Below are positions 1-55,307 of a stretch of 64,000 nucleotides of DNA, piece by piece. The notes under the pieces were generated by a model. That model saw nothing but the letters and a program-made list of their open reading frames with translations. It searched no databases and was not told where the DNA came from. The translations under genes and the position numbers were made by a program. Position 1 is the stretch's first letter; each line of letters starts with the position of its first letter. This DNA comes from Eledone cirrhosa (lineage: Eukaryota): contig OZ024742.1 of NCBI GenBank assembly GCA_964016885.1, positions 20,026,001-20,090,000 of the forward strand, read 5' to 3'.

Positions 1-3000
1 ACTTTGTTCTGAGGTTGACTTTGCTCTGAGGATGACTTTGTCCCGAGGTTGACTTTGTCCCGTGGTTGACTTTGTCCTGAGGTTGACTTTGCTCTGAGGT
101 TGACTTTGCTCTGAGGTTGACTTTTCTCTGAGGTTCACTTCGTCCTGAGGCTGACTTTGCTCTGAGGTTGACTTTGTCTTGAGGTTGACTTTGTACTGAG
201 GTTGACTTTGCTCTAAGGTTGACTTTGCTCTGAGGTTGACTTTGCTCTGAGGTTCACTTCGTCCTGAGGCTGACTTTGCTCTGAGGTTGACTTTGTCTTG
301 AGGTTGACTTTGTACTGAGGTTGACCTTGCTCTGAGGTTGACTTTGCTCTGAGGTTGACTTTGTCCTGAGTTTGAATTTGTCCTGAGGTTGACTTTGCTC
401 TGAGGTTGACTTTGTCCTGAGTTTGAATTTGTCCTGAGGTTGACTTTGCTCTGAGGTTGACTTTGCTCTGAGGTTGACTTTGTCCTGAGTTTGAATTTGT
501 CCTGAGGTTGACTTTGTTCCGAGGTTGACTTGACTCTGAGGTTGACTTTGTACCGAGGTTGACTTTGTCCCGAGGTTGACTTTGTCCTGAGGTTGACTTT
601 GATCTGAGGTTGACTTCGCTCTGTGGTTGACTTTGTCCTGAGGTTGACTTTGTCCTGAGGTTGACTTTGCTCTGACGTTTACTTTGTCCTGAGGTTGACT
701 TTGCCCTGAGGTTGATTTTGCTCTGAGGTTGACTTTGTCCTGAGGTTGACTTTGCTCTGAGGTTGACTTTGCTCTGAGGTTGACTTTGCTCTGAGGTTCA
801 CTTCGTCCTGAGGCTGACTTTGCTCTGAGGTTGACTTTGTCTTGAGGTTGACTTTGTACTGAGGTTGACTTTGCTCTAAGGTTGACTTTGCTCTGAGGTT
901 GACTTTGCTCTGAGGTTCACTTCGTCCTGAGGCTGACTTTGCTCTGAGGTTGACTTTGTCTTGAGGTTGACTTTGTACTGAGGTTGACCTTGCTCTGAGG
1001 TTGACTTTGCTCTGAGGTTGACTTTGTCCTGAGTTTGAATTTGTCCTGAGGTTGACTTTGCTCTGAGGTTGACTTTGTCCTGAGTTTGAATTTGTCCTGA
1101 GGTTGACTTTGCTCTGAGCTTGACTTTGCTCTGAGGTTGACTTTGTCCCGAGGTTGACTTTGTCCCGAGGTTGACTTTGCTCTGAGGTTGACTTTGCCCT
1201 GAGGTAGACTTTGTCGTGAGGTTGACTTTGCTCTGAGGTTGACTTTGCTCTGAGGTTGACTTTGTCCTGAGTTTGAATTTGTCCTGAGGTTGACTTTGTT
1301 CCGAGGTTGACTTGACTCTGAGGTTGACTTTGTACCGAGGTTGACTTTGTCCCGAGGTTGACTTTGTCCTGAGGTTGACTTTGATCTGAGGTTGACTTCG
1401 CTCTGTGGTTGACTTTGTCCTGAGGTTGACTTTGTCCTGAGGTTGACTTTGTTCTGAGGTTGATTTTGTCCTGAGGTTGACTTTGTCCTGAGGTTGACTT
1501 TGCTCTGAGGTTCACTTTGCTCTGAGTTTGACTTTGCTCTGAGGTTGACTTTGTCCTGAGGTTGACTTTGTCCTGAGGTTGACTTGGCTCTGAGGTTGAC
1601 TTTGTCCTGAGGTTGACTTTGTCCTGAGATTGACTTTGTCCTGAGGTTGACTTTGTCCTGAGGTTGACTTTGCTCTGACGTTTACTTTGTCCTGAGGTTG
1701 ACTTTGCCCTGAGGTTGATTTTGCTCTGAGGTTGACTTTGTCCTGAGGTTGACTTTGCTCTGAGGTTGACTTTGCTCTGAGGTTGACTTTGCTCTGAGGT
1801 TCACTTCGTCCTGAGGCTGACTTTGCTCTGAGGTTGACTTTGTCCTGAGGTTGACTTTGTCCTGAGGTTGACTTTGCTCTGAGGTTGACTTTGTCCTAAG
1901 GTTGACTTTGTCCTGAGATTGACTTTGTCCTGAGGTTGACTTTGTCCTGAGGTTGACTTTGCTTTGAGGTTGACTTTGCTCTGAGGTTGACTTCGTCCTG
2001 AGGTTGACTTTGCTCTGAGGTTGACTTTGTCCTGAGGTTGACTTTGTCCTGAGGTTGACTTTGTCCTGAAGTTGACTTTGTCCTGAGGTTGACTTTGCTC
2101 TGAGGTTGACTTTGTCCCGAGGTTGACTTTGTCCCGAGGTTGACTTTGTCCTGCGGTTGACTTTGTCCTGATGTTGACTTTGCTCTGAGGTTGACTTTGC
2201 TCTGAGGTTGACTTTGTCCTGTGGTTGACTTTGTCCTGATGTTGACTTTGTCCTGAGGTTGACTTTGCCCTGAGGTTGACTTTGCTCTGAGGCTGACTTT
2301 GCTCTGAGGTTGACTTTGTCCTGAGTTTGACTTTGTCCTGAGGTTGACTTTGTCCTGAGGTTGACTTTGCTCTGAGCTTGACTTTGCTCTGAGGTTGACT
2401 TTGTCCTGAGGTTGACTTTGTCCTGAGGTTGACTTTGTCCTGAGGTTGACTTTGTCCTGAGGTTGACTTTGCCCTGAGGTTGACTTTGCTCTGAGGCTGA
2501 CTTTGCTCTGAGGTTGACTTTGTCCTGAGGTTGACTTTGCCCTGAGGTTGACTTTGTCCTGGGGTTGACTTTGTCCTGAGGTTGACTTTGTCCTGAGGTT
2601 GAATTGGCTCTGAGGTTGACTTTGCTCTGAGGTTGACTTTGTCCCGAGGTTGACTTTGTCCCAAGGTTGACTTTGTCCTGAGGTTGATATGCTCTGAGGT
2701 TGACTTTGTCCTGTGGTTGACTTTGTCTTGAGGTTGACTTTGTCCTGAGGTTGACTTTGCTCTGAGGTTGACTTTGCTCTGAGGTTGACTTTGTCCTGAG
2801 GTTGACTTTGTCCTGAGGTTGACTTTGCTCTGAGGTTGACTTTGCTCTGAGGTTGACTTTGTCCCGAGGTTGACTTTGTCCCGAGGTTGACTTTGTCCTG
2901 AGGTTGACTTTGTCCTGATGTTGACTTTGCTCTGAGGTTGACTTTGCTCTGAGGTTGACTTTGTCCTGTGGTTGACATTGTCCTGAGGTTGACTTTGCCC

Positions 3001-6000
3001 TGAGGTTGACTTTGTCCTGAGGTTGACTTTGTCCTGAGGTTGACTTTGCCCTGAGGTTGACTTTGCTCTGAGGCTGACTTTGCTCTGAGGTTGACTTTGT
3101 CCTGAGGTTGACTTTGTCCTGAGGTTGACTTTGTCCTGAGGTTGACTTTGTCCTGGGGTTGACTTTGTCCTGAGGTTGACTTTGTCCTGAGGTTGAATTG
3201 GCTCTGAGGTTGACTTTGCTCTGAGGTTGACTTTGCTCTGAGGTTGACTTTGTTCTGAGGTTGACTTTGCTCTGAGGTTGACTTTGCCCTGAGGTTGACT
3301 TTGTCCTGAGGTTGACTTTGCTCTGAGGTTGACTTTGCTCTGAGGTTGATTTTGTTCTGAGGTTGACTTTGCCCTGAGGTTGATTTTGCTCTGAGGTTGA
3401 CTTTGTCCTGAGGTTGACTTTATCCTGAGGTTGACTTTGTCCTGAGGTTGACTTTGCTCTGAGGTTCACTTTGCTCTGCGGTTGACTTTGCTCTGAGGTT
3501 GACTTTGTCCTGAGGTTGACTTTGTCCTGAGGTTGACTTTGTTCTGAGGTTGACTTTGCTCTGAGGATGACTTTGTCCCGAGGTTGACTTTGTCCCGTGG
3601 TTGACTTTGTCCTGAGGTTGACTTTGCTCTGAGGTTGACTTTGCTCTGAGGTTGACTTTTCTCTGAGGTTCACTTCGTCCTGAGGCTGACTTTGCTCTGA
3701 GGTTGACTTTGTCTTGAGGTTGACTTTGTACTGAGGTTGACTTTGCTCTAAGGTTGACTTTGCTCTGAGGTTGACTTTGCTCTGAGGTTCACTTCGTCCT
3801 GAGGCTGACTTTGCTCTGAGGTTGACTTTGTCTTGAGGTTGACTTTGTACTGAGGTTGACCTTGCTCTGAGGTTGACTTTGCTCTGAGGTTGACTTTGTC
3901 CTGAGTTTGAATTTGTCCTGAGGTTGACTTTGCTCTGAGGTTGACTTTGTCCTGAGTTTGAATTTGTCCTGAGGTTGACTTTGCTCTGAGGTTGACTTTG
4001 CTCTGAGGTTGACTTTGTCCTGAGTTTGAATTTGTCCTGAGGTTGACTTTGTTCCGAGGTTGACTTGACTCTGAGGTTGACTTTGTACCGAGGTTGACTT
4101 TGTCCCGAGGTTGACTTTGTCCTGAGGTTGACTTTGATCTGAGGTTGACTTCGCTCTGTGGTTGACTTTGTCCTGAGGTTGACTTTGTCCTGAGGTTGAC
4201 TTTGCTCTGACGTTTACTTTGTCCTGAGGTTGACTTTGCCCTGAGGTTGATTTTGCTCTGAGGTTGACTTTGTCCTGAGGTTGACTTTGCTCTGAGGTTG
4301 ACTTTGCTCTGAGGTTGACTTTGCTCTGAGGTTCACTTCGTCCTGAGGCTGACTTTGCTCTGAGGTTGACTTTGTCCTGATGTTGACTTTGACCTGAGGT
4401 TGACTTTGCTCTGAGGTTGACTTTGTCCTAAGGTTGACTTTGTCCTGAGATTGACTTTGTCCTGAGGTTGACTTTGTCCTGAGGTTGACTTTGCTTTGAG
4501 GTTGACTTTGCTCTGAGGTTGACTTCGTCCTGAGGTTGACTTGGCACTGAGGTTGACTTTGTCCTGAGGTTGACTTTGCTCTGAGGTTGACTTTGTCCTG
4601 AGGTTGACTTTGTCCTGAGGTTGACTTTGTCCTGAGGTTGACTTTGTCCTGAGGTTGACTTTGCTCTGAGGTTGACTTTGTCCCGAGGTTGACTTTGTCC
4701 CGAGGTTGACTTTGTCCTGCGGTTGACTTTGTCCTGATGTTGACTTTGCTCTGAGGTTGACTTTGCTCTGAGGTTGACTTTGTCCTGTGGTTGACTTTGT
4801 CCTGATGTTGACTTTGTCCTGAGGTTGACTTTGCCCTGAGGTTGACTTTGCTCTGAGGCTGACTTTGCTCTGAGGTTGACTTTGTCCTGAGTTTGACTTT
4901 GTCCTGAGGTTGACTTTGTCCTGAGGTTGACTTTGCTCTGAGCTTGACTTTGCTCTGAGGTTGACTTTGTCCTGAGGTTGACTTTGTCCTGAGGTTGACT
5001 TTGTCCTGAGGTTGACTTTGTCCTGAGGTTGACTTTGCCCTGAGGTTGACTTTGCTCTGAGGCTGACTTTGCTCTGAGGTTGACTTTGTCCTGAGGTTGA
5101 CTTTGCCCTGAGGTTGACTTTGTCCTGGGGTTGACTTTGTCCTGAGGTTGACTTTGTCCTGAGGTTGAATTGGCTCTGAGGTTGACTTTGCTCTGAGGTT
5201 GACTTTGTCCCGAGGTTGACTTTGTCCCAAGGTTGACTTTGTCCTGAGGTTGATATGCTCTGAGGTTGACTTTGTCCTGTGGTTGACTTTGTCTTGAGGT
5301 TGACTTTGTCCTGAGGTTGACTTTGCTCTGAGGTTGACTTTGCTCTGAGGTTGACTTTGTCCTGAGGTTGACTTTGTCCTGAGGTTGACTTTGCTCTGAG
5401 GTTGACTTTGCTCTGAGGTTGACTTTGTCCCGAGGTTGACTTTGTCCCGAGGTTGACTTTGTCCTGAGGTTGACTTTGTCCTGATGTTGACTTTGCTCTG
5501 AGGTTGACTTTGCTCTGAGGTTGACTTTGTCCTGTGGTTGACATTGTCCTGAGGTTGACTTTGCCCTGAGGTTGACTTTGTCCTGAGGTTGACTTTGTCC
5601 TGAGGTTGACTTTGCCCTGAGGTTGACTTTGCTCTGAGGCTGACTTTGCTCTGAGGTTGACTTTGTCCTGAGGTTGACTTTGTCCTGAGGTTGACTTTGT
5701 CCTGAGGTTGACTTTGTCCTGGGGTTGACTTTGTCCTGAGGTTGACTTTGTCCTGAGGTTGAATTGGCTCTGAGGTTGACTTTGCTCTGAGGTTGACTTT
5801 GCTCTGAGGTTGACTTTGCCCTGAGGTTGACTTTGTCCTGGGGTTGACTTTGTCCTGAGGTTGACTTTGTCCTGAGGTTGAATTGGCTCTGAGGTTGACT
5901 TTGCTCTGAGGTTGACTTTGTCCCGAGGTTGACTTTGTCCCAAGGTTGACTTTGTCCTGAGGTTGATATGCTCTGAGGTTGACTTTGTCCTGTGGTTGAC

Positions 6001-9000
6001 TTTGTCTTGAGGTTGACTTTGTCCTGAGGTTGACTTTGCTCTGAGGTTGACTTTGCTCTGAGGTTGACTTTGTCCTGAGGTTGACTTTGTCCTGAGGTTG
6101 ACTTTGCTCTGAGGTTGACTTTGCTCTGAGGTTGACTTTGTCCCGAGGTTGACTTTGTCCCGAGGTTGACTTTGTCCTGAGGTTGACTTTGTCCTGATGT
6201 TGACTTTGCTCTGAGGTTGACTTTGCTCTGAGGTTGACTTTGTCCTGTGGTTGACATTGTCCTGAGGTTGACTTTGCCCTGAGGTTGACTTTGTCCTGAG
6301 GTTGACTTTGTCCTGAGGTTGACTTTGCCCTGAGGTTGACTTTGCTCTGAGGCTGACTTTGCTCTGAGGTTGACTTTGTCCTGAGGTTGACTTTGTCCTG
6401 AGGTTGACTTTGTCCTGAGGTTGACTTTGTCCTGGGGTTGACTTTGTCCTGAGGTTGACTTTGTCCTGAGGTTGAATTGGCTCTGAGGTTGACTTTGCTC
6501 TGAGGTTGACTTTGCTCTGAGGTTGACTTTGTTCTGAGGTTGACTTTGCTCTGAGGTTGACTTTGCCCTGAGGTTGACTTTGTCCTGAGGTTGACTTTGC
6601 TCTGAGGTTGACTTTGCTCTGAGGTTGATTTTGTTCTGAGGTTGACTTTGCCCTGAGGTTGATTTTGCTCTGAGGTTGACTTTGTCCTGAGGTTGACTTT
6701 ATCCTGAGGTTGACTTTGTCCTGAGGTTGACTTTGCTCTGAGGTTCACTTTGCTCTGCGGTTGACTTTGCTCTGAGGTTGACTTTGTCCTGAGGTTGACT
6801 TTGTCCTGAGGTTGACTTTGTTCTGAGGTTGACTTTGCTCTGAGGATGACTTTGTCCCGAGGTTGACTTTGTCCCGTGGTTGACTTTGTCCTGAGGTTGA
6901 CTTTGCTCTGAGGTTGACTTTGCTCTGAGGTTGACTTTTCTCTGAGGTTCACTTCGTCCTGAGGCTGACTTTGCTCTGAGGTTGACTTTGTCTTGAGGTT
7001 GACTTTGTACTGAGGTTGACTTTGCTCTAAGGTTGACTTTGCTCTGAGGTTGACTTTGCTCTGAGGTTCACTTCGTCCTGAGGCTGACTTTGCTCTGAGG
7101 TTGACTTTGTCTTGAGGTTGACTTTGTACTGAGGTTGACCTTGCTCTGAGGTTGACTTTGCTCTGAGGTTGACTTTGTCCTGAGTTTGAATTTGTCCTGA
7201 GGTTGACTTTGCTCTGAGGTTGACTTTGTCCTGAGTTTGAATTTGTCCTGAGGTTGACTTTGCTCTGAGGTTGACTTTGCTCTGAGGTTGACTTTGTCCT
7301 GAGTTTGAATTTGTCCTGAGGTTGACTTTGTTCCGAGGTTGACTTGACTCTGAGGTTGACTTTGTACCGAGGTTGACTTTGTCCCGAGGTTGACTTTGTC
7401 CTGAGGTTGACTTTGATCTGAGGTTGACTTCGCTCTGTGGTTGACTTTGTCCTGAGGTTGACTTTGTCCTGAGGTTGACTTTGCTCTGACGTTTACTTTG
7501 TCCTGAGGTTGACTTTGCCCTGAGGTTGATTTTGCTCTGAGGTTGACTTTGTCCTGAGGTTGACTTTGCTCTGAGGTTGACTTTGCTCTGAGGTTGACTT
7601 TGCTCTGAGGTTCACTTCGTCCTGAGGCTGACTTTGCTCTGAGGTTGACTTTGTCCTGATGTTGACTTTGACCTGAGGTTGACTTTGCTCTGAGGTTGAC
7701 TTTGTCCTAAGGTTGACTTTGTCCTGAGATTGACTTTGTCCTGAGGTTGACTTTGTCCTGAGGTTGACTTTGCTTTGAGGTTGACTTTGCTCTGAGGTTG
7801 ACTTCGTCCTGAGGTTGACTTGGCACTGAGGTTGACTTTGTCCTGAGGTTGACTTTGCTCTGAGGTTGACTTTGTCCTGAGGTTGACTTTGTCCTGAGGT
7901 TGACTTTGTCCTGAGGTTGACTTTGTCCTGAGGTTGACTTTGCTCTGAGGTTGACTTTGTCCCGAGGTTGACTTTGTCCCGAGGTTGACTTTGTCCTGCG
8001 GTTGACTTTGTCCTGATGTTGACTTTGCTCTGAGGTTGACTTTGCTCTGAGGTTGACTTTGTCCTGTGGTTGACTTTGTCCTGATGTTGACTTTGTCCTG
8101 AGGTTGACTTTGCCCTGAGGTTGACTTTGCTCTGAGGCTGACTTTGCTCTGAGGTTGACTTTGTCCTGAGTTTGACTTTGTCCTGAGGTTGACTTTGTCC
8201 TGAGGTTGACTTTGCTCTGAGCTTGACTTTGCTCTGAGGTTGACTTTGTCCTGAGGTTGACTTTGTCCTGAGGTTGACTTTGTCCTGAGGTTGACTTTGT
8301 CCTGAGGTTGACTTTGCCCTGAGGTTGACTTTGCTCTGAGGCTGACTTTGCTCTGAGGTTGACTTTGTCCTGAGTTTGACTTTGCCCTGAGGTTGACTTT
8401 GTCCTGGGGTTGACTTTGTCCTGAGGTTGACTTTGTCCTGAGGTTGAATTGGCTCTGAGGTTGACTTTGCTCTGAGGTTGACTTTGTCCCGAGGTTGACT
8501 TTGTCCCAAGGTTGACTTTGTCCTGAGGTTGATATGCTCTGAGGTTGACTTTGTCCTGTGGTTGACTTTGTCTTGAGGTTGACTTTGTCCTGAGGTTGAC
8601 TTTGCTCTGAGGTTGACTTTGCTCTGAGGTTGACTTTGTCCTGAGGTTGACTTTGTCCTGAGGTTGACTTTGCTCTGAGGTTGACTTTGCTCTGAGGTTG
8701 ACTTTGTCCCGAGGTTGACTTTGTCCCGAGGTTGACTTTGTCCTGAGGTTGACTTTGTCCTGATGTTGACTTTGCTCTGAGGTTGACTTTGCTCTGAGGT
8801 TGACTTTGTCCTGTGGTTGACATTGTCCTGAGGTTGACTTTGCCCTGAGGTTGACTTTGTCCTGAGGTTGACTTTGTCCTGAGGTTGACTTTGCCCTGAG
8901 GTTGACTTTGCTCTGAGGCTGACTTTGCTCTGAGGTTGACTTTGTCCTGAGGTTGACTTTGTCCTGAGGTTGACTTTGTCCTGAGGTTGACTTTGTCCTG

Positions 9001-12000
9001 GGGTTGACTTTGTCCTGAGGTTGACTTTGTCCTGAGGTTGAATTGGCTCTGAGGTTGACTTTGCTCTGAGGTTGACTTTGCTCTGAGGTTGACTTTGTTC
9101 TGAGGTTGACTTTGCTCTGAGGTTGACTTTGCCCTGAGGTTGACTTTGTCCTGAGGTTGACTTTGCTCTGAGGTTGACTTTGCTCTGAGGTTGATTTTGT
9201 TCTGAGGTTGACTTTGCCCTGAGGTTGATTTTGCTCTGAGGTTGACTTTGTCCTGAGGTTGACTTTATCCTGAGGTTGACTTTGTCCTGAGGTTGACTTT
9301 GCTCTGAGGTTCACTTTGCTCTGCGGTTGACTTTGCTCTGAGGTTGACTTTGTCCTGAGGTTGACTTTGTCCTGAGGTTGACTTTGTTCTGAGGTTGACT
9401 TTGCTCTGAGGATGACTTTGTCCCGAGGTTGACTTTGTCCCGTGGTTGACTTTGTCCTGAGGTTGACTTTGCTCTGAGGTTGACTTTGCTCTGAGGTTGA
9501 CTTTTCTCTGAGGTTCACTTCGTCCTGAGGCTGACTTTGCTCTGAGGTTGACTTTGTCTTGAGGTTGACTTTGTACTGAGGTTGACTTTGCTCTAAGGTT
9601 GACTTTGCTCTGAGGTTGACTTTGCTCTGAGGTTCACTTCGTCCTGAGGCTGACTTTGCTCTGAGGTTGACTTTGTCTTGAGGTTGACTTTGTACTGAGG
9701 TTGACCTTGCTCTGAGGTTGACTTTGCTCTGAGGTTGACTTTGTCCTGAGTTTGAATTTGTCCTGAGGTTGACTTTGCTCTGAGGTTGACTTTGTCCTGA
9801 GTTTGAATTTGTCCTGAGGTTGACTTTGCTCTGAGCTTGACTTTGCTCTGAGGTTGACTTTGTCCCGAGGTTGACTTTGTCCCGAGGTTGACTTTGCTCT
9901 GAGGTTGACTTTGCCCTGAGGTTGACTTTGTCCTGAGGTTGACTTTGCTCTGAGGTTGACTTTGCTCTGAGGTTGACTTTGTCCTGAGTTTGAATTTGTC
10001 CTGAGGTTGACTTTGTTCCGAGGTTGACTTGACTCTGAGGTTGACTTTGTACCGAGGTTGACTTTGTCCCGAGGTTGACTTTGTCCTGAGGTTGACTTTG
10101 ATCTGAGGTTGACTTCGCTCTGTGGTTGACTTTGTCCTGAGGTTGACTTTGTCCTGAGGTTGACTTTGTTCTGAGGTTGATTTTGTCCTGAGGTTGACTT
10201 TGTCCTGAGGTTGACTTTGCTCTGAGGTTCACTTTGCTCTGAGTTTGACTTTGCTCTGAGGTTGACTTTGTCCTGAGGTTGACTTTGTCCTGAGGTTGAC
10301 TTGGCTCTGAGGTTGACTTTGTCCTGAGGTTGACTTTGTCCTGAGATTGACTTTGTCCTGAGGTTGACTTTGTCCTGAGGTTGACTTTGCTCTGACGTTT
10401 ACTTTGTCCTGAGGTTGACTTTGCCCTGAGGTTGATTTTGCTCTGAGGTTGACTTTGTCCTGAGGTTGACTTTGCTCTGAGGTTGACTTTGCTCTGAGGT
10501 TGACTTTGCTCTGAGGTTCACTTCGTCCTGAGGCTGACTTTGCTCTGAGGTTGACTTTGTCCTGAGGTTGACTTTGTCCTGAGGTTGACTTTGCTCTGAG
10601 GTTGACTTTGTCCTAAGGTTGACTTTGTCCTGAGATTGACTTTGTCCTGAGGTTGACTTTGTCCTGAGGTTGACTTTGCTTTGAGGTTGACTTTGCTCTG
10701 AGGTTGACTTCGTCCTGAGGTTGACTTGGCACTGAGGTTGACTTTGTCCTGAGGTTGACTTTGCTCTGAGGTTGACTTTGTCCTGAGGTTGACTTTGTCC
10801 TGAGGTTGACTTTGTCCTGAGGTTGACTTTGTCCTGAGGTTGACTTTGCTCTGAGGTTGACTTTGTCCTGAGGTTGACTTTGCTCTGAGGTTGACTTTGT
10901 CCTGAGGTTGACTTTGTCCCGAGGTTGACTTTGTCCTGAGGTTGACTTTGTCCTGAGGTTGACTCTGCCCTGAGGTTGACTTTGTCCTGAGGTTGACTTT
11001 GCTCTGAGGTTGACTTTGTCCTGAGGTTGACTTTGCTCTGAGGTTGACTTTGTCCTGAGGTTGACTTTGTCCTGAGGTTGACTTTGTCCTGAGGTTGACT
11101 TTGTTCTGAGGTTCACTTTGTCCTGAGGTTGACTTTGTCCTGAGGTTGACTTTGTCCTGAGGTTGACTTTGCTCTGAGGTTGACTTTGTCCTGTGGTTGA
11201 CATTGTCCTGAGGTTGACTTTGTCCTGAGGTTGACTTTGTCCTGAGGTTGACTTTGCCCTGAGGTTGACTTTGCTCTGAGGCTGACTTTGCTCTGAGGTT
11301 GACTTTGTCCTGAGGTTGACTTTGTCCTGAGGTTGACTTTGTCCTGAGGTTGACTTTGTCCTGGGGTTGACTTTGTCCTGAGGTTGACTTTGTCCTGAGG
11401 TTGAATTGGCTCTGAGGTTGACTTTGCTCTGAGGTTGACTTTGCTCTGAGGTTGACTTTGTTCTGAGGTTGACTTTGCTCTGAGGTTGACTTTGCCCTGA
11501 GGTTGACTTTGTCCTGAGGTTGACTTTGCTCTGAGGTTGACTTTGCTCTGAGGTTGATTTTGTTCTGAGGTTGACTTTGCCCTGAGGTTGATTTTGCTCT
11601 GAGGTTGACTTTGTCCTGAGGTTGACTTTATCCTGAGGTTGACTTTGTCCTGAGGTTGACTTTGCTCTGAGGTTCACTTTGCTCTGCGGTTGACTTTGCT
11701 CTGAGGTTGACTTTGTCCTGAGGTTGACTTTGTCCTGAGGTTGACTTTGTTCTGAGGTTGACTTTGCTCTGAGGATGACTTTGTCCCGAGGTTGACTTTG
11801 TCCCGTGGTTGACTTTGTCCTGAGGTTGACTTTGCTCTGAGGTTGACTTTGCTCTGAGGTTGACTTTTCTCTGAGGTTCACTTCGTCCTGAGGCTGACTT
11901 TGCTCTGAGGTTGACTTTGTCTTGAGGTTGACTTTGTACTGAGGTTGACTTTGCTCTAAGGTTGACTTTGCTCTGAGGTTGACTTTGCTCTGAGGTTCAC

Positions 12001-15000
12001 TTCGTCCTGAGGCTGACTTTGCTCTGAGGTTGACTTTGTCTTGAGGTTGACTTTGTACTGAGGTTGACCTTGCTCTGAGGTTGACTTTGCTCTGAGGTTG
12101 ACTTTGTCCTGAGTTTGAATTTGTCCTGAGGTTGACTTTGCTCTGAGCTTGACTTTGCTCTGAGGTTGACTTTGTCCCGAGGTTGACTTTGTCCCGAGGT
12201 TGACTTTGCTCTGAGGTTGACTTTGCCCTGAGGTTGACTTTGTCCTGAGGTTGACTTTGCTCTGAGGTTGACTTTGCTCTGAGGTTGACTTTGTCCTGAG
12301 TTTGAATTTGTCCTGAGGTTGACTTTGTTCCGAGGTTGACTTGACTCTGAGGTTGACTTTGTACCGAGGTTGACTTTGTCCCGAGGTTGACTTTGTCCTG
12401 AGGTTGACTTTGATCTGAGGTTGACTTCGCTCTGTGGTTGACTTTGTCCTGAGGTTGACTTTGTCCTGAGGTTGACTTTGTTCTGAGGTTGATTTTGTCC
12501 TGAGGTTGACTTTGTCCTGAGGTTGACTTTGCTCTGAGGTTCACTTTGCTCTGAGTTTGACTTTGCTCTGAGGTTGACTTTGTCCTGAGGTTGACTTTGT
12601 CCTGAGGTTGACTTGGCTCTGAGGTTGACTTTGTCCTGAGGTTGACTTTGTCCTGAGATTGACTTTGTCCTGAGGTTGACTTTGTCCTGAGGTTGACTTT
12701 GCTCTGACGTTTACTTTGTCCTGAGGTTGACTTTGCCCTGAGGTTGATTTTGCTCTGAGGTTGACTTTGTCCTGAGGTTGACTTTGCTCTGAGGTTGACT
12801 TTGCTCTGAGGTTGACTTTGCTCTGAGGTTCACTTCGTCCTGAGGCTGACTTTGCTCTGAGGTTGACTTTGTCCTGAGGTTGACTTTGTCCTGAGGTTGA
12901 CTTTGCTCTGAGGTTGACTTTGTCCTAAGGTTGACTTTGTCCTGAGATTGACTTTGTCCTGAGGTTGACTTTGTCCTGAGGTTGACTTTGCTTTGAGGTT
13001 GACTTTGCTCTGAGGTTGACTTCGTCCTGAGGTTGACTTGGCACTGAGGTTGACTTTGTCCTGAGGTTGACTTTGCTCTGAGGTTGACTTTGTCCTGAGG
13101 TTGACTTTGTCCTGAGGTTGACTTTGTCCTGAGGTTGACTTTGTCCTGAGGTTGACTTTGCTCTGAGGTTGACTTTGTCCTGAGGTTGACTTTGCTCTGA
13201 GGTTGACTTTGTCCTGAGGTTGACTTTGTCCCGAGGTTGACTTTGTCCTGAGGTTGACTTTGTCCTGAGGTTGACTCTGCCCTGAGGTTGACTTTGTCCT
13301 GAGGTTGACTTTGCTCTGAGGTTGACTTTGTCCTGAGGTTGACTTTGCTCTGAGGTTGACTTTGTCCTGAGGTTGACTTTGTCCTGAGGTTGACTTTGTC
13401 CTGAGGTTGACTTTGTTCTGAGGTTGACTTTGTCCTGAGGTTGACTTTGTCCTGAGGTTGACTTTGTCCTGAGGTTGACTTAGCCCTGAGGTTGACTTTG
13501 CCCTGAGGTTGACTTTGCCCTGAGGTTGACTTTGCTCTGAGGTTGACTTTGTCCCGAGGTTGACATTGTCCCGAGGTTGACTTTGCTCTGAGGTTGACTT
13601 TGCCCTGAGGTTGACTTTGTCCTGAGGTTGACTTTGTCCTGAGGTTGACTTTGTTCTGAGGTTGACTTTGCTCTGAGGTTGACTTTGTCCCGAGGTTGAC
13701 TTTGTCCCGGGGTTGACTTTGTCCTGAGGTTGACTTTGCTCTGAGGTTGACTTTGTCTTGAGGTTGACTTTGTCCTGAGGTTGACTTTGCTCTGAGGTTG
13801 ACTTTGCTCTGAGGTTGACTTTGTCCTGAGGTTGACTTTGTCCTGAGGTTGACTTTGCTCTGAGGTTGACTTTGCTCTGAGGTTGACTTTGTCCTGAGGT
13901 TGACTTTGTCCTGATGTTGACTTTGCTCTGAGGTTGACTTTGCTCTGAGGTTGACTTTGTCCTGTGGTTGACTTTGTCTTGAGGTTGACTTTGTCCTGAG
14001 GTTGACTTTGCTCTGAGGTTGACTTTGCCCTGAGGTTGACTTTGTCCTGAGGTTGACTTGGTCCTGAGGTTGACTTTGCTCTGAGGTTGATTTTACTCTG
14101 AGGTTGACTTTGTCCCGAGGTTGACTTTGTCTTGAGGTTGACTTTGTCCTGAGGTTGACTTTGTCCTGATGTTGACTTTGCTCTGAGGTTGACTTTGCTC
14201 TGAGGTTGACTTTGTCCTGTGGTTGACTTTGCTCTGAGGTTGATTTTGCCCTGAGGTTGACTTTGTCCTGAGGTTGACTTTGTCCTGAGGTTGACTTTGC
14301 CCTGAGGTTGACTTTGCTCTGAGGCTGACTTTGCTCTGAGGTTGACTTTGTCCTGAGGTTGACTTTGTCCTGAGGTTGACTTTGTCCTGAGGTTGACTTT
14401 GCTCTGAGCTTGACTTTGCTCTGAGGTTGACTTTGCTCTGAGGTTGACTTTGTCCCGAGGTTGACTTTGTCCCGAGGTTGACTTTGTCCTGAGGTTGACT
14501 TTGTCCTGATGTTGACTTTGCTCTGAGGTTGACTTTGCTCTGAGGTTGACTTTGTCCTGTGGTTGACTTTGTCCTGATGTTGACTTTGTCCTGAGGTTGA
14601 CTTTGCCCTGAGGTTGACTTTGCTCTGAGGCTGACTTTGCCCTGAGGTTGACTTTGTCCTGAGTTTGACTTTGTCCTGAGGTTGACTTTGCTCTGAGGTT
14701 GACTTTGTCCTGAGGTTGACTTTGTCCTGAGGTTGAATTGGCTCTGAGGTTGACTATGCTCTGAGGTTGACTTTGTCCTGAGGTTGACTTTGCTCTGAGG
14801 TTGACTTTGCTCTGAGGTTGACTTTGCTCTGAGGTTCACTTCGTCCTGAGGCTGACTTTGCTCTGAGGTTGACTTTGTCCTGAGGTTGACTTTGTCCTGA
14901 GATTGACTTCGTCCTGAGGTTGACTTTGTCCTGAAGTTGACTTTGCTCTGAGGTTGACTTTGTCCTGAGGTTGACTTTGTCCTGAGGTTGACTTTGCTTT

Positions 15001-18000
15001 GAGGTTGACTTTGCTCTGAGGTTGAACTTGTCCTGAGATTGACTTTGCTCTGATGTTGACTTTTTCCTGAGGTTGACTTTGCTCTGAGGTTGACTTTGTC
15101 CTGAAGTTGACTTTGCTCTGAGGTTGACTTTATCCTGAGGTTGACTTTGTCCTGAGGTTGACTTTGTCCTGAGGTTGACTTTGTCCTGAGGTTGACTTTG
15201 CTCTGATGTTGACTTTGTCCTGAGGTTGACTTTGCTCTGAGGTTGACGTTGTCCTGAGGTTGACTCTGTCCTGAGGTTGACTTTGTCCTGAGGTTGACTT
15301 TGCTCTGAGGTTGACTTTGTCCTGAGGTTGACTTTGCTCTGAGGTTGACTTTGTCCTGATGTTGACTTTTTCCTGAGGTTGACTTTGCTCTGAGGTTGAC
15401 TTCGTCCTGAGGTTGACTTTGTCCTGAGGTTGACTTTGCTCTGAGGTTGACTTTATCCTGAGGTTGACTTTGTCCTGAGGTTGACTTTGTCCTGAGGTTG
15501 ACTTTGTCCTGAGGTTGACTTTGCTCTGAGGTTGACTTTGTCCTGAGGCTGACTTTGCTCTGAGGTTGACTTTGTCCTGAGGTTGACTTTGTCCTGAGGT
15601 TGACTTTGTCATGAGGTTGACTTTGTCCTGAGGTTGACTTTGCTCTGAAGTTGACTTTGTCCTGAGGTTGACTCTGTCCTGAGTTTGACTTTGTCCTGAG
15701 GTTGACTTTGTCCTGAGGTTGACTTTGCTCTGAGGTTCACTTTGTCCTGAGGTTGACTTTGTCCTGAGGTTGACTTTGTCCTGAGGTTGACTTAGCCCTG
15801 AGGTTGACTTTGCCCTGAGGTTGACTTTGCCCTGAGGTTGACTTTGCTCTGAGGTTGACTTTGTCCCGAGGTTGACATTGTCCCGAGGTTGACTTTGCTC
15901 TGAGGTTGACTTTGCCCTGAGGTTGACTTTGTCCTGAGGTTGACTTTGTCCTGAGGTTGACTTTGTTCTGAGGTTGACTTTGCTCTGAGGTTGACTTTGT
16001 CCCGAGGTTGACTTTGTCCCGGGGTTGACTTTGTCCTGAGGTTGACTTTGCTCTGAGGTTGACTTGGCTCTGAGGTTGACTTTGTCCTGAGGTTGACTTT
16101 GTCCTGAGGTTGACTTTGCTCTGAGGTTGACTTTGCTCTGAGGTTGACTTTGTCCTGTGGTTGACTTTGTCTTGAGGTTGACTTTGTCCTGAGGTTGACT
16201 TTGCTCTGAGGTTGACTTTGCCCTGAGGTTGACTTTGTCCTGAGGTTGACTTGGTCCTGAGGTTGACTTTGCTCTGAGGTTGATTTTACTCTGAGGTTGA
16301 CTTTGTCCCGAGGTTGACTTTGTCTTGAGGTTGACTTTGTCCTGAGGTTGACTTTGTCCTGATGTTGACTTTGCTCTGAGGTTGACTTTGCTCTGAGGTT
16401 GACTTTGTCCTGTGGTTGACTTTGCTCTGAGGTTGATTTTGCCCTGAGGTTGACTTTGTCCTGAGGTTGACTTTGTCCTGAGGTTGACTTTGCCCTGAGG
16501 TTGACTTTGCTCTGAGGCTGACTTTGCTCTGAGGTTGACTTTGTCCTGAGGTTGACTTTGTCCTGAGGTTGACTTTGTCCTGAGGTTGACTTTGCTCTGA
16601 GCTTGACTTTGCTCTGAGGTTGACTTTGCTCTGAGGTTGACTTTGTCCCGAGGTTGACTTTGTCCCGAGTTTGACTTTGTCCTGAGGTTGACTTTGTCCT
16701 GATGTTGACTTTGCTCTGAGGTTGACTTTGCTGTGAGGTTGACTTTGTCCTGTGGTTGACTTTGTCCTGATGTTGACTTTGTCCTGAGGTTGACTTTGCC
16801 CTGAGGTTGACTTTGCTCTGAGGCTGACTTTGCCCTGAGGTTGACTTTGTCCTGAGTTTGACTTTGTCCTGAGGTTGACTTTGCTCTGAGGTTGACTTTG
16901 TCCTGAGGTCGACTTTGTCCTGAGGTTGAATTGGCTCTGAGGTTGACTATGCTCTGAGGTTGACTTTGTACTGAGGTTGACTTTGCTCTGAGGTTGACTT
17001 TGCTCTGAGGTTGACTTTGCTCTGAGGTTCACTTCGTCCTGAGGCTGACTTTGCTCTGAGGTTGACTTTGTCCTGAGGTTGACTTTGTCCTGAGATTGAC
17101 TTTGTCCTGAGGTTGACTTTGTCCTGAAGTTGACTTTGCTCTGAGGTTGACTTTGTCCTGAGGTTGACTTTGTCCTGAGGTTGACTTTGCTTTGAGGTTG
17201 ACTTTGCTCTGAGGTTGAACTTGTCCTGAGATTGACTTTGCTCTGATGTTGACTTTTTCCTGAGGTTGACTTTGCTCTGAGGTTGACTTTGTCCTGAAGT
17301 TGACTTTGCTCTGAGGTTGACTTTATCCTGAGGTTGACTTTGTCCTGAGGTTGACTTTGGCCTGAGGTTGACTTTGTCCTGAGGTTGACTTTGCTCTGAT
17401 GTTGACTTTGTCCTGAGGTTGACTTTGCTCTGAGGTTGACGTTGTCCTGAGGTTGACTCTGTCCTGAGGTTGACTTTGTCCTGAGGTTGACTTTGCTCTG
17501 AGGTTGACTTTGTCCTGAGGTTGACTTTGCTCTGAGGTTGACTTTGTCCTGATGTTGACTTTTTCCTGAGGTTGACTTTGCTCTGAGGTTGACTTTGTCC
17601 TGAGCTTGACTTTGTCCTGAGGTTGACTTTGCTCTGAGGTTGACTTTATCCTGAGGTTGACTTTGTCCTGAGGTTGACTTTGTCCTGAGGTTGACTTTGT
17701 CCTGAGGTTGACTTTGCTCTGAGGTTGACTTTGTCCTGAGGCTGACTTTGCTCTGAGGTTGACTTTGTCCTGAGGATGACTTTATCCTGAGGTTGACTTT
17801 GTCATGAGGTTGACTTTGTCCTGAGGTTGACTTTGCTCTGAAGTTGACTTTGTCCTGATGTTGACTTTGTCCTGACTTTGACTTTGTCCTGAGGTTGACT
17901 TTGCCCTGAGGTTGACTTTGCCCTGAGGTTGACTTTTCCCTGAGGTTGACTTTGCTCTGAGGCTGACTTTGTCCCGAGGTTGACTTTGTCCCGAGGTTGA

Positions 18001-18431
18001 CTTTGCTCTGAGGTTGACTTTGTCCTGAGGTTGACTTTGTCCTGAGGTTGACTTTGTTCCGAGGTTGACTTTGCTCTGAGGTTGACTTTGTCCCGAGGTT
18101 GACTTTGTCCTCAGGTTGACTTTGTCCTGAGGTTGACTTTGCTCTGAGGTTGACTTTGCTCTGTGGTTGACTTTGTCCTGAGGTTGACTTTGTCCTGAGG
18201 CTGACTTTGGTCTGATGTTCATTTTGCTCTGAGGTTGACTTTGCTCTGAGGTTGACTTTGTCCTGAGGTTGACTTTGTCCTGAGGTTGACTTTGTTCTGA
18301 GGTTGACTTTGTCCTGAGGTTGACTTTGTCCTGAGGTTGATTTTGTCCTGAGGTTGACTTTGTCCTGAGGTTGACTTTGTCCTGAGGTTGACTTTGCCCT
18401 GAGGTTGACTTTGTTCTGAGGTTGACTTTGC
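1..18431. repeat. 17-bp satellite array, monomer G(TC/CT)CTGAGGTTGACTTT, ~1,080 copies, open at the left edge
   Basis: Continuous 17-bp period with two major variants (gtcct/gctct). Rare variants recur at multiples of 17 bp. The minus-strand ORFs repeat every 17 aa (3 monomers). Confidence 0.99.
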
Positions 18432-18661
18432 CTTTCGTTATTTCGAGGTCGATCAAAAAAAGTACCAGGCCAATACTGAGGTCGATTCTTCTTTTATATC
18501 TCTTCTCACTTTCTCTCACTCTCTGAATCTTGGAAGAAATCAGCTATGTTCAGACTTGGGGAAGGAATAGACTTGGCCAATATAAATTATAATTATCTGT
18601 GTCTCGACGTATGTCAGTCACAACGAAGCCCCTACGACTCCATCAGGAGTTACGGGTCCAT
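18418..18661 (+). mobile_element. 3' part of a SINE (family B, long tail) continuous with the last satellite monomer
   Basis: gaggttgactttgcctttc...gaggtcgatcaaaaaaagtaccag...actgaggtcgatt, then the B tail ending ctacgactccatcaggagttacgggtccat; collinear with 19245-19781 and 37144-37430. Confidence 0.85.
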
Positions 18662-18948
18662 TTGTTATCTTAGTTTAACAATAGGATTCAAAATAGATAA
18701 ATTTAGTGAACGGGGAAACAATGAAATGTTTTGTCACAAACAACTTTATCGCATTCACTCACCTTTATAATGAATCTCGTGTTGATGATAAATTGCTATT
18801 TAAAGTACGTTTACATTTTAAGCAAGTTTCCACTCACTAACACACACGCACACCACATACACCCGTATGATCGCACACTCACGTGTATCTATATACTCAC
18901 ATACACATACATAGGTACACTGATATACATATACGCATGCACATACAA

Positions 18949-21913: not shown

Positions 21914-22247
21914 CAAATCTACCAATCTCTAAAAACCCTACGGAGAGTACCATGAAAAAAGGTGCCCTAAAACGGAGAGAAGTAAGGCAAAATGGGTAGA
22001 TTTTACATAATTGTTTCTACTTTTTAGCACAAGGCCAGCAATTACCCAGTGCATTACTGGTACTTTATTTTATCGACCCCGTAAGGATGAAAGGCAAAGT
22101 CAACCTCGGCGGGATTGACTTTGCCTTTTCCCGGGGAGATTTTACATAATGAGAGCTATACTCATTTACACAAGAGAAGACATCTCTCAGCCACCCCAAA
22201 GTGGGTGGGGGATCTCCCCGTCCGACAGGGTAAGTTGACAGAGTCTG
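21914..22247 (-). mobile_element. MITE family D copy interrupted by a SINE A fragment (22012-22132)
   Basis: Reverse complement of the 24427-24621 copy; SINE TSD ggg(t/g)agattttacataat at 21994-22011 and 22133-22150. Confidence 0.8.
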
Positions 22248-27923: not shown

Positions 27924-28938
27924 GTCTATATCATTGTTTTTAAAACTAACAATGGTGTGTGTTATTGTTCTGTTAAAACTAGCAATGGTTGGTCTGTTGG
28001 GGACGTTGTGGTTCTGTTAAAACTGACATTGGTTGGTCAGTTGGGGCTGTTGTGGTTCTGTTAAAACTGACAATGGTTGGTCTGTTGGGGACGTTGTGGT
28101 TCTGTTAAAACTGGAATTGGTTGGTCTGTTGGGGACGTTGTGGTTCTGTTAAAACTAACAATAGTTGGTCTGTTGGGGACGTTGTGGTTCTGTTAAAACT
28201 AACAATGGTTGGTCTGTTGGGGACGTTGTGGTTCTGTTAAAACTAGCAATGGTTGGTCTGTTGAGGCCGTTGTGGTTCTGTTAAAACTAGCAATGGTTGG
28301 TCTGTTGGGGCCGTTGTGGTTCTGTTAAAACTAACAATGGTTGGTCTGTTGGGGACGTTGTGGTTCTGTTAAATCTAACAATGGTTGGTCTGTTGGGGCC
28401 GTTGTGATTCTGTTAAAACTAGCAATGGTTGGTCTGTTGGGGCCGTTGTGGTTCTGTTAAAACTAGGAATGGTTGGTCTGTTGGGGACGTTGTGGTTCTG
28501 TTAAAACTGACATTGGTTGGTCAGTTGGGGCTGTTGTGGTTCTGTTAAAACTGACATTGGTTGGTCTGTTGGGGACGTTGTGGTTCTGTTAAAACTGGCA
28601 TTGGTTGGTCTGTTGGGGCCGTTGTGGTTCTGTTAAAACTGGAATTGGTTGGTCTGTTGTGGACGTTGTGGTTCTGTTAAAACTAACAATGGTTGGTCTT
28701 TTGAGGCCGTTGTGGTTCTGTTAAAACTAACAATGGTTGGTCTGTTGGGGCCGCTGTGGTTCTGTTAAAACTAACAATGGTCGGTCTGTTGGGGACGTTG
28801 TTGTTCTCTTAAAACTAGCAATGGTTGGTCTGTTGGGGCCGTTGTGGTTCTGTTAAAACTAGCAATGGTTGGTCTGTTGGGGCCGTTGTGGTTCTGTTAA
28901 AATTGACATTGGTTGGTCTGTTGGGGCCGTTGTGGTTC

Positions 28939-31106
28939 TGTAGTGACCTACATTCCGCGGGCTCACATACATTCTCTGTGCGTGATTTGGTTCAGCTCAG
29001 CCAATCAGCGCCATTAGAAGAGGATGTATCCCTACGCGTCCTGAGGGAGAAATTCCCCGCGAAGATTTGAAGAATCTTCCTCTCGCACCAGGAACTTCGA
29101 ACCAGCAACATGTGACGGTGAGATTTTGCACCTTAGCCTGCCGGCTTTCCGGCGCAATGGCACATTACCTTTTGTAACCTCATTTTATGTGTAACTTCAA
29201 CCATACAAGTTAACCAACATTATTTGTGCTACAACAAAATAAACATACATTTCATCTCTAATTTCTGCTGTTGACGTCATTATTATGTTACTCGTGCCTC
29301 AATAACATTTATACACCATGCTGCTAAAAGTGGTGACCCCGACGTGATGAATATTTTCAGTTCAAAATATTCCTTTTGAAATAAAATTAAAATTGGCAGT
29401 GTATGTATAAACAAATTTACGCCACGAGGAAATTTCAAAACGGCTACCACCAAGTACCAGCCGTCAGCAGCAACACATGGCTAACTATTAACCAACACCA
29501 GGGAATGGCTTGTAACTTTACCGACGCAACCACCATACCTTCTGTCTCGTTACCACAAGGACTCGAGAAATTAAGACATTAGTCTTCTCACCATTATGGC
29601 GTCAGACGTGCTGCCATGTTGGTGACTATAGGTTCTTCAACGCTAGACTTCGACTCTACAGAAGATTCATTGTGACTTTGCTTTAACAACAACAACTCTA
29701 CTAGCTCCCTAGTAAGAGCGATCCCAAAGAAAAGAAAAGCGAACTTTTTGTTAAAAGAAAAGAAACATTCTTTCTTTCTTCCTTTTTTTTTTTCAGGCAT
29801 TTATTTTGGACATTTGTTTTTTTAAAACTGTATTATCTGGAAATTCATTTTTTTTCTATCATTGTATATATGACTGCATCATTTTTTTATCATTGTATAT
29901 ATGACTGCACCCACACATTTATTTGCTGTTTTACATGCCTGCATATGCACACATTTCTTTGTCATCCTACAACATGTTGTTCTTATTCTTCAAACGTAAT
30001 ATACTGCGAGATCCCTTTTCACCTGGTTGAGGTGCCGTCACATGCTAGCGACTCATAGAGCTTAATTCACCTGGATTCAAACAGGCACCGCAACGCGAGA
30101 ATGTTAATTGCAGCTGAACTCAAACAGTTTCGCATCTCGTTGCACACTCATCGTCCATAACAACCTCCATCTTGTTACCTTACCCGACTCACTGGGAAAA
30201 CAACATATAGAACTGGACTTGTCAGCATTTCCACCACTTCTGTGGATTCGCCCGAATTATGGAATTTACACTACAACCCACCTACAGATTCAACTTGCTT
30301 TTTTTCTTTTCAAAGCAACCAGCCATTTTTTTTCCTGGCTCCCTAGCACATTCGATAATACATCTGGGAGGCCAACATTTTCTCGCCTACCCATCATCTT
30401 CTTGCCAGCACTGGTAAACTACCATAATAGCTTCATCCCCAGCTACTGGTACAACACTTACCATTAACATTTAATGCAAGAACAGCAACTTCGCCCATGT
30501 CAGACTTTATCCGTTTTATGTTAGACCTTTGGTGGTCACGTATAAACTACAAAACAGCTAGTCATTTGACACAGCGGCTCAACACGGCCCTTAGCGCCTC
30601 ATTCTTTTTCTTGTATGCATCCTTCTGCACAATTATTTTTTCACTGATGTGCTCTTTCAGCATTTGTTCTTGCTGATTCAATAATCTGTATCGACTTCCG
30701 TCTAGAAAGGGAGTATTGTAGTGACCTACATTCCGCGGGCTTACATACATTCTCTGTGCGTGATTTGGCTCAGCTCAGCTAATCAGCGCCAGTAGAAGAA
30801 GATGTATCCCTACGCGTCCTGAGGGAGAAATTCCCCGCGAAGATTTGAAGAATCTTCCTCTCGCACCAGGAACTTCGAACCAGCAACATGTGACGGTGAG
30901 ATTTTGCACCTTAGCCTGCCGGCTTTCCAGCGCAATGGCACATTCCCTTTTGTAACCTCATTTTATGTGTAACTTCAACCATACAAGTTAACCAACATTA
31001 TTTGTGCTACAACAAAATAAACATACATTTCATCTCTAATTTCTGCTGTTGACGTCATTATTATGTTACTCGTGTCTCAATAACATTTATACACCCTGCT
31101 GCTAAA
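28939..31106 (+). mobile_element. Non-autonomous LTR retroelement (2,168 bp; Gypsy-like cis signals)
   Basis: 390-bp LTRs at 28939-29328 and 30717-31106 (~9 differences by eye); TSD gttc; PBS 29331-29348; PPT agaaagggag 30704-30713; no gag/pol ORF. Confidence 0.93.
29331..29348 (+). other. Primer-binding site complementary to the tRNA-Trp 3' end
   Basis: tggtgaccccgacgtgat is the complement of ATCACGTCGGGGTCACCA and lies 2 nt after the 5' LTR. Confidence 0.9.
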
Positions 31107-31982
31107 GTTCTGTTAAAACTAACAATGGTTGGTCTGTTGGGGCCGTTGTGGTTCTGTTAAAACTAACAATGGTGGGTCTGTTGGGGACGTTGTGGTTCTG
31201 TTAAAACTAGCAATGGTTGGTCTGTTGGGGCCGTTGTGGTTCTGTTAAAACTAGCAATGGTTGGTCTGCTGGGGCCGTTGTGGTTCTGTTAAAACTAACA
31301 ATGGTTGGTCTGTTGGGGACGTTGTTCTCTTAAAACTAGCAATGGTTGATGTAGTTTCCGTGCCGTTAAAACTAGCAACCATCTGTCTATATTGTTGCTG
31401 TTGTTTTTCTATTAAAACTAACGACTGTCTGTCGTCTTTATTGTTCTATTAAAACTAGTGACGTTCTGCATTAGTATTGTTCCTTTAAAACTATTGATAG
31501 TCTACGTATGTGTTAGCTAAGTCCATCATGTAGAATCAGTTATCTAAGCCAGGGTTGGATTAAAGCCGGATTTGCTGACAGAGTAAAACATTCATTTCTA
31601 TTTCTATTTGTGTATGTTTGTGTTTCTAGAAATAACCATCGTCTTTGTCATTTTCACAGTTTGATTGTATGACGACATTAAAGTTTAGTGTTCATTGTTG
31701 TTGTTGTTATGTTGTGTGTTGTTATTTATAGATTAGTTCATTACTGACTGCAGTAGAAGAAGAAGAAGGAGTAGAGACTAATACATTAATCGCCCTGGGA
31801 ACCAGAAGGCCAGTGTTAATCGATAGAACGCCGACACGTGTTCTCTCTCTCTCTCTATATATATATAAGAGAGATAAAGAGGGAGTAAGGGGGGGGGGAG
31901 GAAAGAAAATGAGAACCTGAGAGAGAAAAACCTCGTTAATGTAGGTCACTGAACAATTGACTGTTAAACAGTGCTGCTGGCT

Positions 31983-52650: not shown

Positions 52651-52699
52651 GTTTCATTTATTGGCCACAAGGGCCGACATATAGGGGACAATACAAATG

Positions 52700-55272: not shown

Positions 55273-55307
55273 GTTGGCAGATAAAAAGAGAGAGAGGAAA
55301 GGTTTAC

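What the first reader, a model, noticed from the sequence alone, without database searches (positions are those of the whole stretch)
18380..18661. An 18-kb+ satellite apparently grown from inside a SINE
Seen: the last monomer (gaggttgactttgcc) continues without a break into tttc...gtcgat...aaagtaccag...actg.ggtcgatt and then the SINE-B tail. Dispersed SINE A and B copies here carry ccgaggtt(a/g)actttgcc just after the B-box. Inference: the monomer is a tandemly amplified internal SINE segment, and this junction is the seed locus. TE-derived satellites are known in general, but I do not know this family as described.
Basis: partly seen in the sequence, partly recalled or inferred. Interest (0 to 1): 0.85.

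Follow-up and report, generated by a model that had tools for sequence, protein, structure and literature searches.

The report
Satellite grown inside one SINE copy
A 34-kb block of about 2,000 copies of a 17-base DNA word sits exactly between the front half and the back half of a common jumping element, so it likely grew in place from inside one old copy of that element; this is a clear new example of a known route to satellite DNA, and nothing here shows that it has a job.

Summary
Confirmed and extended. The 17-bp array runs 34,109 bp (2,007 monomers), 15.7 kb of it left of the window. Its left edge is a SINE head (80% to the family majority), its right edge the matching body and tail (81%), in register and on one strand. 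The B box is missing: the monomer spans a 16-bp deletion junction that recurs in 16 other dispersed copies (17 vs 1,010 intact pattern matches). The array is single-locus (1,003 of 1,004 genome matches), so it is a seed that has not spread. The TSD candidate is no better than chance. Tandem duplications inside these SINEs occur at dozens of places (54 for this segment; more for a control segment), one reaching 22 kb, so this segment is no hotspot. New wrinkle: duplications of this segment lack the B box in 12 of 29 copies versus 0 of 29 controls, suggesting deletion and first duplication are linked. Closest known: SINE-derived satellites of squamates (PMC10702118), including their both-ends variant; the unit here is far shorter. 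The scan noted a SINE-tail-seeded 45-kb array elsewhere in this genome (unchecked). New member of a known kind; no function shown.

The parts
1..18432 (+). Right-hand part of the 17-bp tandem array. The whole array is G000:C3:20010324-20044432 (34,109 bp, 2,007 monomers, no N); 15,677 bp lie left of the window. Just left of it, outside the window, lie the SINE head without B box (C3:20010252-20010323, L006:4252-4323) and the left copy of a candidate TSD (C3:20010241-20010249).
   Evidence: head: 57 of 71 aligned columns match the family majority, 4 of 1500 random windows score as well, alignment
18416..18432 (+). Last monomer, in the form that matches both edges and is likely ancestral
18433..18661 (+). 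SINE body and 3' tail (B type: CT-rich stretch, then the family's 3' end)
   Evidence: 174 of 214 columns to the family majority; family end at 18661 also marked by loose ends of many contigs
18663..18669 (+). Right copy of the candidate target-site duplication. Not significant.
   Evidence: score 7; 65 of 300 random flanks and 16 of 62 swapped pairs reach it

Best explanation
The 34-kb array lies between the head and the tail of a tRNA-type SINE and likely grew in place inside one old copy, likely starting when a repair or replication slip between two look-alike words 16 bp apart removed the B box and doubled the 17 bases across the new junction. Shown: head left, tail right, in register; B box absent; single locus; nested multi-kb duplications. 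Inferred step 1: the SINE carries a built-in imperfect direct repeat (9 of 12 bases, 16 bp apart) around its B box; a jump between the two deletes the B box, as has happened repeatedly in the family. Inferred step 2: in the same event or soon after, a jump back at a 4-bp TGCC repeat made two copies of the 17-mer (microhomology-mediated end joining with templated insertion, or polymerase slippage). Inferred step 3: slippage, then unequal exchange or break-induced copying of ever larger blocks, built 2,007 units. The host copy, without a B box, is likely transcriptionally dead, so the array would have no retrotransposition route to other places; it is most likely a neutral, length-variable locus. 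About 0.85 for growth in place in one copy; about 0.55 for deletion and duplication being one linked event.
For: Head 80% and tail 81% to the family majority, i.e. equal age. Junction types between monomers: the form that matches both edges (115 of 2006) is one step from each of the two commonest (869, 722); the form expected from an intact copy is 0 of 2006, and all 151 CC-starting monomers follow one lineage. The same 16-bp deletion gives 17 pattern matches against 1,010 intact; 12 deleted copies are rejected as one clade (p-AU 0.004). Built-in repeat. Of 54 places with this segment doubled, 12 of 29 with a readable A box lack the B box, against 0 of 29 single copies (Fisher 1e-4); doubled copies of a control segment lose their upstream neighbour in 2 of 23 (p 0.011). 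Blocks of 4,946, 3,586 and 3,279 bp repeat with 1-2 mismatches; shuffled monomer order gives runs of at most 9 units. 1,003 of 1,004 dimer matches lie in this array. Templated insertions under 25 bp at deletion junctions are a described outcome of polymerase-theta joining (PMC12426944, passages).
Against: TSD not significant, so one-copy origin rests on register and equal divergence. The flanking repeat is 4 bp, below the 5-10 bp of the Haber-Louis model as quoted in PMC3389668. The 12-of-29 test has an ascertainment lean: the deletion junction itself rebuilds the word I searched for, which the control segment cannot do; one of the 12 (16-bp period) may be two chance substitutions and one has a doubtful A box (10 of 27 without them, p 2e-4); 25 of the 54 places had no readable A box and were left out. 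The order of steps 1 and 2 cannot be read from this locus. No short-read contig covered the left junction in the three runs with the best shares laid there. No pre-expansion allele was found.
Confidence: 0.8

Rival explanations
1. Duplication first, B box lost later: the post-B-box 17-mer doubled in an intact copy, the array grew, and a later deletion between the head and a monomer removed the B box.
For: A two-copy 17-bp duplication exists at C8:7.99 Mb; 151 monomers start with the CC form seen in intact copies; arrays with an intact B box exist (C17:29.0 Mb, C1:272.6 Mb).
Against: The junction form this predicts is 0 of 2006 and the CC form is tied to one derived lineage; intact copies mostly give a 15-bp unit through a GCC repeat; the left junction is exactly the recurrent deletion point.
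Confidence: 0.1
2. Two SINE copies: the array grew from one copy and later recombined with the homologous segment of another copy, so head and tail come from different insertions.
For: No significant TSD; SINE density is high (8 exact 22-base anchors in 130 kb).
Against: Head and tail are both B type, equally diverged; a weak TSD is what a 20% diverged copy would keep (inference); 9 of 14 other arrays looked at also keep head and tail (by eye).
Confidence: 0.06
3. The array is real but its length is inflated by the assembler, the near-identical multi-kb blocks being repeated reads rather than duplications.
For: Blocks of 3-5 kb differ by 1-2 bases; removing later copies of exact runs of 20 or more monomers leaves 15.1 kb.
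Against: No gap in the array; blocks are nested and shuffled at many lags; array words have summed contig depth 4,600-4,800 against about 9 for a single-copy contig in two runs of one sample, the same order as the 718 places within one mismatch, though the tool warns that depth is no copy number. Origin inside the SINE would stand either way.
Confidence: 0.15
4. Chance junction: an unrelated satellite met a SINE tail through microhomology.
For: Only that the monomer is short and SINEs are dense.
Against: Both edges match in register (4 of 1500 and 2 of 600 random windows); no other array of the monomer.
Confidence: 0.01

Closest known systems
SINE-derived satellites (sSat1-3) of squamate reptiles, Vassetzky et al. 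2023, PMC10702118 (parts 1-4 of 5 of the text read; no supplements)
   Same: Tandem array of an internal SINE segment with terminal units running on into the SINE; an uncommon variant keeps both SINE ends; some genomes have many short heterogeneous loci and one very long locus (over 1,200 monomers in Sceloporus occidentalis).
   Different: Units there are about 70-290 nt; here 17. Snake sSat3 includes the B box; here it is deleted. 2,007 units. No spread of one unit to many loci. Different phylum: the paper says it is uncertain whether such satellites are confined to squamates.
Alu- and B1-derived minisatellites (Ahmed and Liang 2012, PMC3389668, passages; Jurka and Gentles 2006 and Bois et al. 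1998 seen only as cited in PMC3389668 and PMC9659126)
   Same: Unit of minisatellite size born inside a SINE at a single locus; short direct repeats implicated; most such events stop at two copies.
   Different: Array of satellite scale (34 kb); flanking repeat only 4 bp; unit spans a deletion junction.
Octopus tRNA-derived SINEs OR1, OR2, OK (Ohshima and Okada 1994; OR1 and OR2 seen only as cited in PMC4824008, PMC4758252, PMC5804259; the name OK is recalled)
   Same: Recalled resemblance of the host SINE to octopod SINEs; tRNA-type A and B boxes by motif.
   Different: No sequence comparison could be made; family and superfamily (CORE or other) are untested.

Membership tests
SINE-derived satellite (sSat) | Repeat unit corresponds to a part of a SINE | tested here: met
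   15 of 17 to B-box-deleted copies, 14 of 17 to the family majority
SINE-derived satellite (sSat) | Terminal unit runs on into the SINE up to its end | tested here: met
   both ends
SINE-derived satellite (sSat) | At least four middle monomers, homogeneous | tested here: met
   2,007 monomers; 5.8% pairwise difference over 15 positions, 11% over all 17
SINE-derived satellite (sSat) | Unit length 70-290 nt (range described, not a definition) | tested here: not met
   17 bp
SINE-derived satellite (sSat) | Same unit at many loci (major sSat variants; single-locus cases are also described) | tested here: not met
   1,003 of 1,004 matches in one array
SINE-derived satellite (sSat) | Subtelomeric, heterochromatic position | tested here: inconclusive
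   20 Mb from the end of a 379-Mb contig; chromatin not testable
SINE-derived minisatellite (Haber-Louis type) | Unit of 10-100 bp | tested here: met
SINE-derived minisatellite (Haber-Louis type) | Flanking direct repeat of 5-10 bp | tested here: not met
   4 bp
SINE-derived minisatellite (Haber-Louis type) | Length differs between individuals | not testable with these tools
   only one sample of the species covered the site
tRNA-derived SINE (host family) | A and B boxes in the head | tested here: met
   by motif in intact copies (box motifs recalled); Rfam gave no tRNA match for one intact copy; B box absent in this copy
tRNA-derived SINE (host family) | Dispersed, high copy, target-site duplications, short 3' repeats | tested here: met
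   9,216 first-look candidates; 14 of 31 other near-full copies score 12 or more for a TSD, 3 of them in simple repeats
tRNA-derived SINE (host family) | TSD around this copy | tested here: inconclusive
tRNA-derived SINE (host family) | 3' tail shared with a partner LINE | not tested
   none
CORE-SINE / octopus OR1, OR2, OK | Shared central domain | not testable with these tools
   no reference sequence on hand; motif searches of papers and one paper's supplements gave nothing relevant

The most novel reading that the evidence does not exclude
A built-in imperfect repeat around the B box makes these SINEs self-seeding: one template-switch event removes the promoter and creates the first tandem pair, and the genome holds every stage, from two-copy scars through 20-100-unit arrays to 22-34-kb satellites, with the parent's ends still attached. 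That would be a dated, countable series for how minisatellites are born and how rarely they grow to satellite size, outside vertebrates.
Probability: 0.35. Interest if true: 0.55.

Novelty: new member of a known kind. Interest (0 to 1): 0.35.

Why it matters
The birth of a tandem array is rarely visible. Here the parent sequence, both edges and the likely first events can be read, and dozens of arrested two-copy stages lie in the same genome. It extends SINE-derived satellites beyond squamates, a question left open in PMC10702118, to a very short unit and 2,000 copies. It does not show a new system or a function.

Tried and rejected
Hotspot idea: rejected. A control segment of the same SINEs gives more doubled places (62 against 33 over C1 to C8:59 Mb, counted by hand; 2,110 against 192 matches) with similar single-copy counts for the long anchors (7 and 8 in 130 kb; 25 and 9 for the short ones). 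B-box-less subfamily: rejected (33 of 44 copies used, duplicates and poor matches dropped; the intact copies were chosen by likeness to a query). Higher-order repeat: none; no lag up to 60 monomers stands out, only irregular block copies. Coding: the minus strand has stop-free frames up to 1,244 codons because the monomer has no stop on that strand; taken as composition, not a gene. Rfam: only chance matches. One 158-base contig matches 18405-18562 exactly but has only 28 bases on the array side and may come from the assembly's own sample. Most local arrays are not SINE-internal: 1 of 21 in 164 kb (by eye). Literature: searches found no paper on SINE-derived satellites in cephalopods (listings only; one search was swamped by an unrelated enzyme name); the Octopus vulgaris repeat paper PMC13282606 (passages) has no word starting 'satellite'. 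Subscription papers and unseen supplements may bear on this.

Full report
Observation. The window's first 18,432 bases are a 17-bp tandem array. Its last monomer runs straight into a SINE body and tail, 18433-18661. The window is G000:C3:20026001-20090000 in a 3.0-Gb genome.

Left edge. In 100 kb fetched to the left the monomer starts at C3:20010324. The array is 34,109 bp, 2,007 monomers, all but ten of them 17 bp, with no N. The 72 bases before it are a SINE head of the same B type and strand: 57 of 71 columns match the majority of 20 other copies, and the tail matches at 174 of 214. Random local windows score as well in 4 of 1500 and 2 of 600 draws. Head and tail are equally diverged, about 20%, as two halves of one old insertion would be. 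The 20 comparison copies are closer to their majority (84-96%) but were chosen by likeness to a query. The family makes TSDs (14 of 31 other near-full copies score 12 or more, 3 of them in simple repeats), but the candidate here scores 7, which 65 of 300 random flanks and 16 of 62 swapped pairs reach: inconclusive.

What the monomer is. The head stops where the B box should start and passes into the segment after it: 16 bp are missing. The family majority has two look-alike words, 9 of 12 bases the same, 16 bp apart around the B box. The same deletion gives 17 pattern matches in the genome, this locus included, against 1,010 for the intact form (the patterns differ slightly in length). I read 11 of the other 16; with the array's host they are rejected as one clade (p-AU 0.004; 8 changes, 33 of 44 copies), so the deletion recurs. 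Of 2,006 monomer junctions, the type that matches both edges occurs 115 times and is one step from each of the two commonest (869, 722); the type expected from an intact copy occurs 0 times, and all 151 CC-starting monomers follow one lineage. A 4-bp TGCC repeat flanks the unit. So the unit most likely spans the deletion junction.

Growth. Monomers differ by 5.8% over their first 15 positions, far less than the host's divergence. There is no regular higher-order repeat, but blocks of 4,946, 3,586 and 3,279 bp recur with 1-2 mismatches and smaller blocks are nested at many lags; shuffles give runs of at most 9 units. This points to recent block copying; if all exact runs of 20 or more units were assembly repeats, 15.1 kb would remain. 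In two runs of one sample, array words have summed depth 4,600-4,800 against about 9 for a single-copy contig, the order expected from 718 near-exact places; depth is no copy number, and the sample may be the assembly's own. Two other organisms lack the array words (0-20). No contig covered the left junction in the best runs, and no array-free allele was found.

Spread. A 39-base trimer has 116 matches, all here. A degenerate dimer has 1,004 matches, 1,003 here; the other is probably a two-copy duplication at C8:7.99 Mb. The array is single-locus, as far as exact patterns and the assembly show.

How unusual. The same SINE segment is doubled at 54 places, with periods from 10 to 37 bp and mostly two copies. 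A control segment gives 62 places against 33 over the same contigs (hand count), so this segment is no hotspot. Of 16 places looked at, 14 gave an array, 9 with head and tail remnants on both sides by eye; sizes reach 3.9 kb and 22 kb. The present array is the longest I saw; note e1-9555341 reports 45 kb from a SINE tail elsewhere in this genome (unchecked). Locally only 1 of 21 arrays is SINE-internal.

A link between deletion and duplication. Among the 54 places, 29 have a readable A box; 12 of these lack the B box, against 0 of 29 single copies (Fisher 1e-4; 10 of 27 after dropping two doubtful rows). In 40 of the control segment's places, 23 have an A box and 2 lack the upstream neighbour (p 0.011 against 12 of 29; single copies 1 of 19). 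Several cases read as a jump over the B box, a short copy, and a jump back. This resembles templated insertions at microhomology deletions (PMC12426944, passages). The test leans my way: the deletion junction rebuilds the searched word, which the control cannot do. I give the linked-event reading about even odds.

Known kinds. PMC10702118 (parts 1-4 of 5 read) describes SINE-derived satellites in 56 squamate genomes: units of 70-290 nt, a rare variant with both SINE ends, one locus of over 1,200 units, and many short heterogeneous loci in some species. This locus works like that variant and meets its structural features; it differs in unit size, in losing the B box and in taxon. At unit scale it resembles Alu- and B1-derived minisatellites (PMC3389668, PMC9659126, passages). 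Searches listed no paper on such arrays in cephalopods. The host SINE's family name could not be tested (passages, a motif search and one paper's supplements).

Verdict. Real, correctly read in outline, a new member of a known kind; no function shown. Interest 0.35.

Noticed in passing
G000:C1:4331025-4352996 (L113, L114, L117): 22-kb array, 568 units of 39 bp, each with a piece of the B-type SINE body; SINE-head-like DNA at one end, no tail at the other.
   Followed up: partly
G000:C8:49.53 Mb (L110:2154-2608): Close parallel: 24 units of 19 bp from the same segment, B-type head without B box on the left, tail on the right.
   Followed up: partly
G000:C3:1.958-1.962 Mb (L121, L122): 118 units of 33 bp inside an A-type SINE, head up to the B box on the left and tail on the right.
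   Followed up: partly
G000:C8:59 Mb onward: 689 unlisted matches of the doubled downstream segment point to further long SINE-derived arrays.
   Followed up: no
window 39433-41487: 48-bp array (44 units) ending about 25 bp from the 3' end of a reversed B-type SINE; its left flank resembles another dispersed repeat. Any link to the 48-bp satellite of note e1-9585604 was not checked.
   Followed up: no
window 27967-28941 and 31107-31348: The same 44-bp unit forms two arrays 2 kb apart.
   Followed up: no
window 45510-49786: 31-bp array of 138 units with strong strand skew; no SINE at its edges.
   Followed up: no
window 52658-55380 (-), 57894-61523 (-), 61944-63998 (-): Long frames that read like endonuclease and reverse-transcriptase parts of LINEs, some broken (by eye, no family search).
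   Followed up: no
window 22000-22130: Two SINE pieces overlapping around the same segment on opposite strands, forming a short inverted repeat.
   Followed up: no
L053-L064 (C27, C20, C16): Twelve SINE hits with identical scores, 100-1,400 kb apart on C20 and C27: likely large segmental copies.
   Followed up: no
G000:C1:4374482-4386000 and beyond (L119, L120): 46-bp array of at least 11.5 kb about 21 kb from the 22-kb array; not SINE-like.
   Followed up: no
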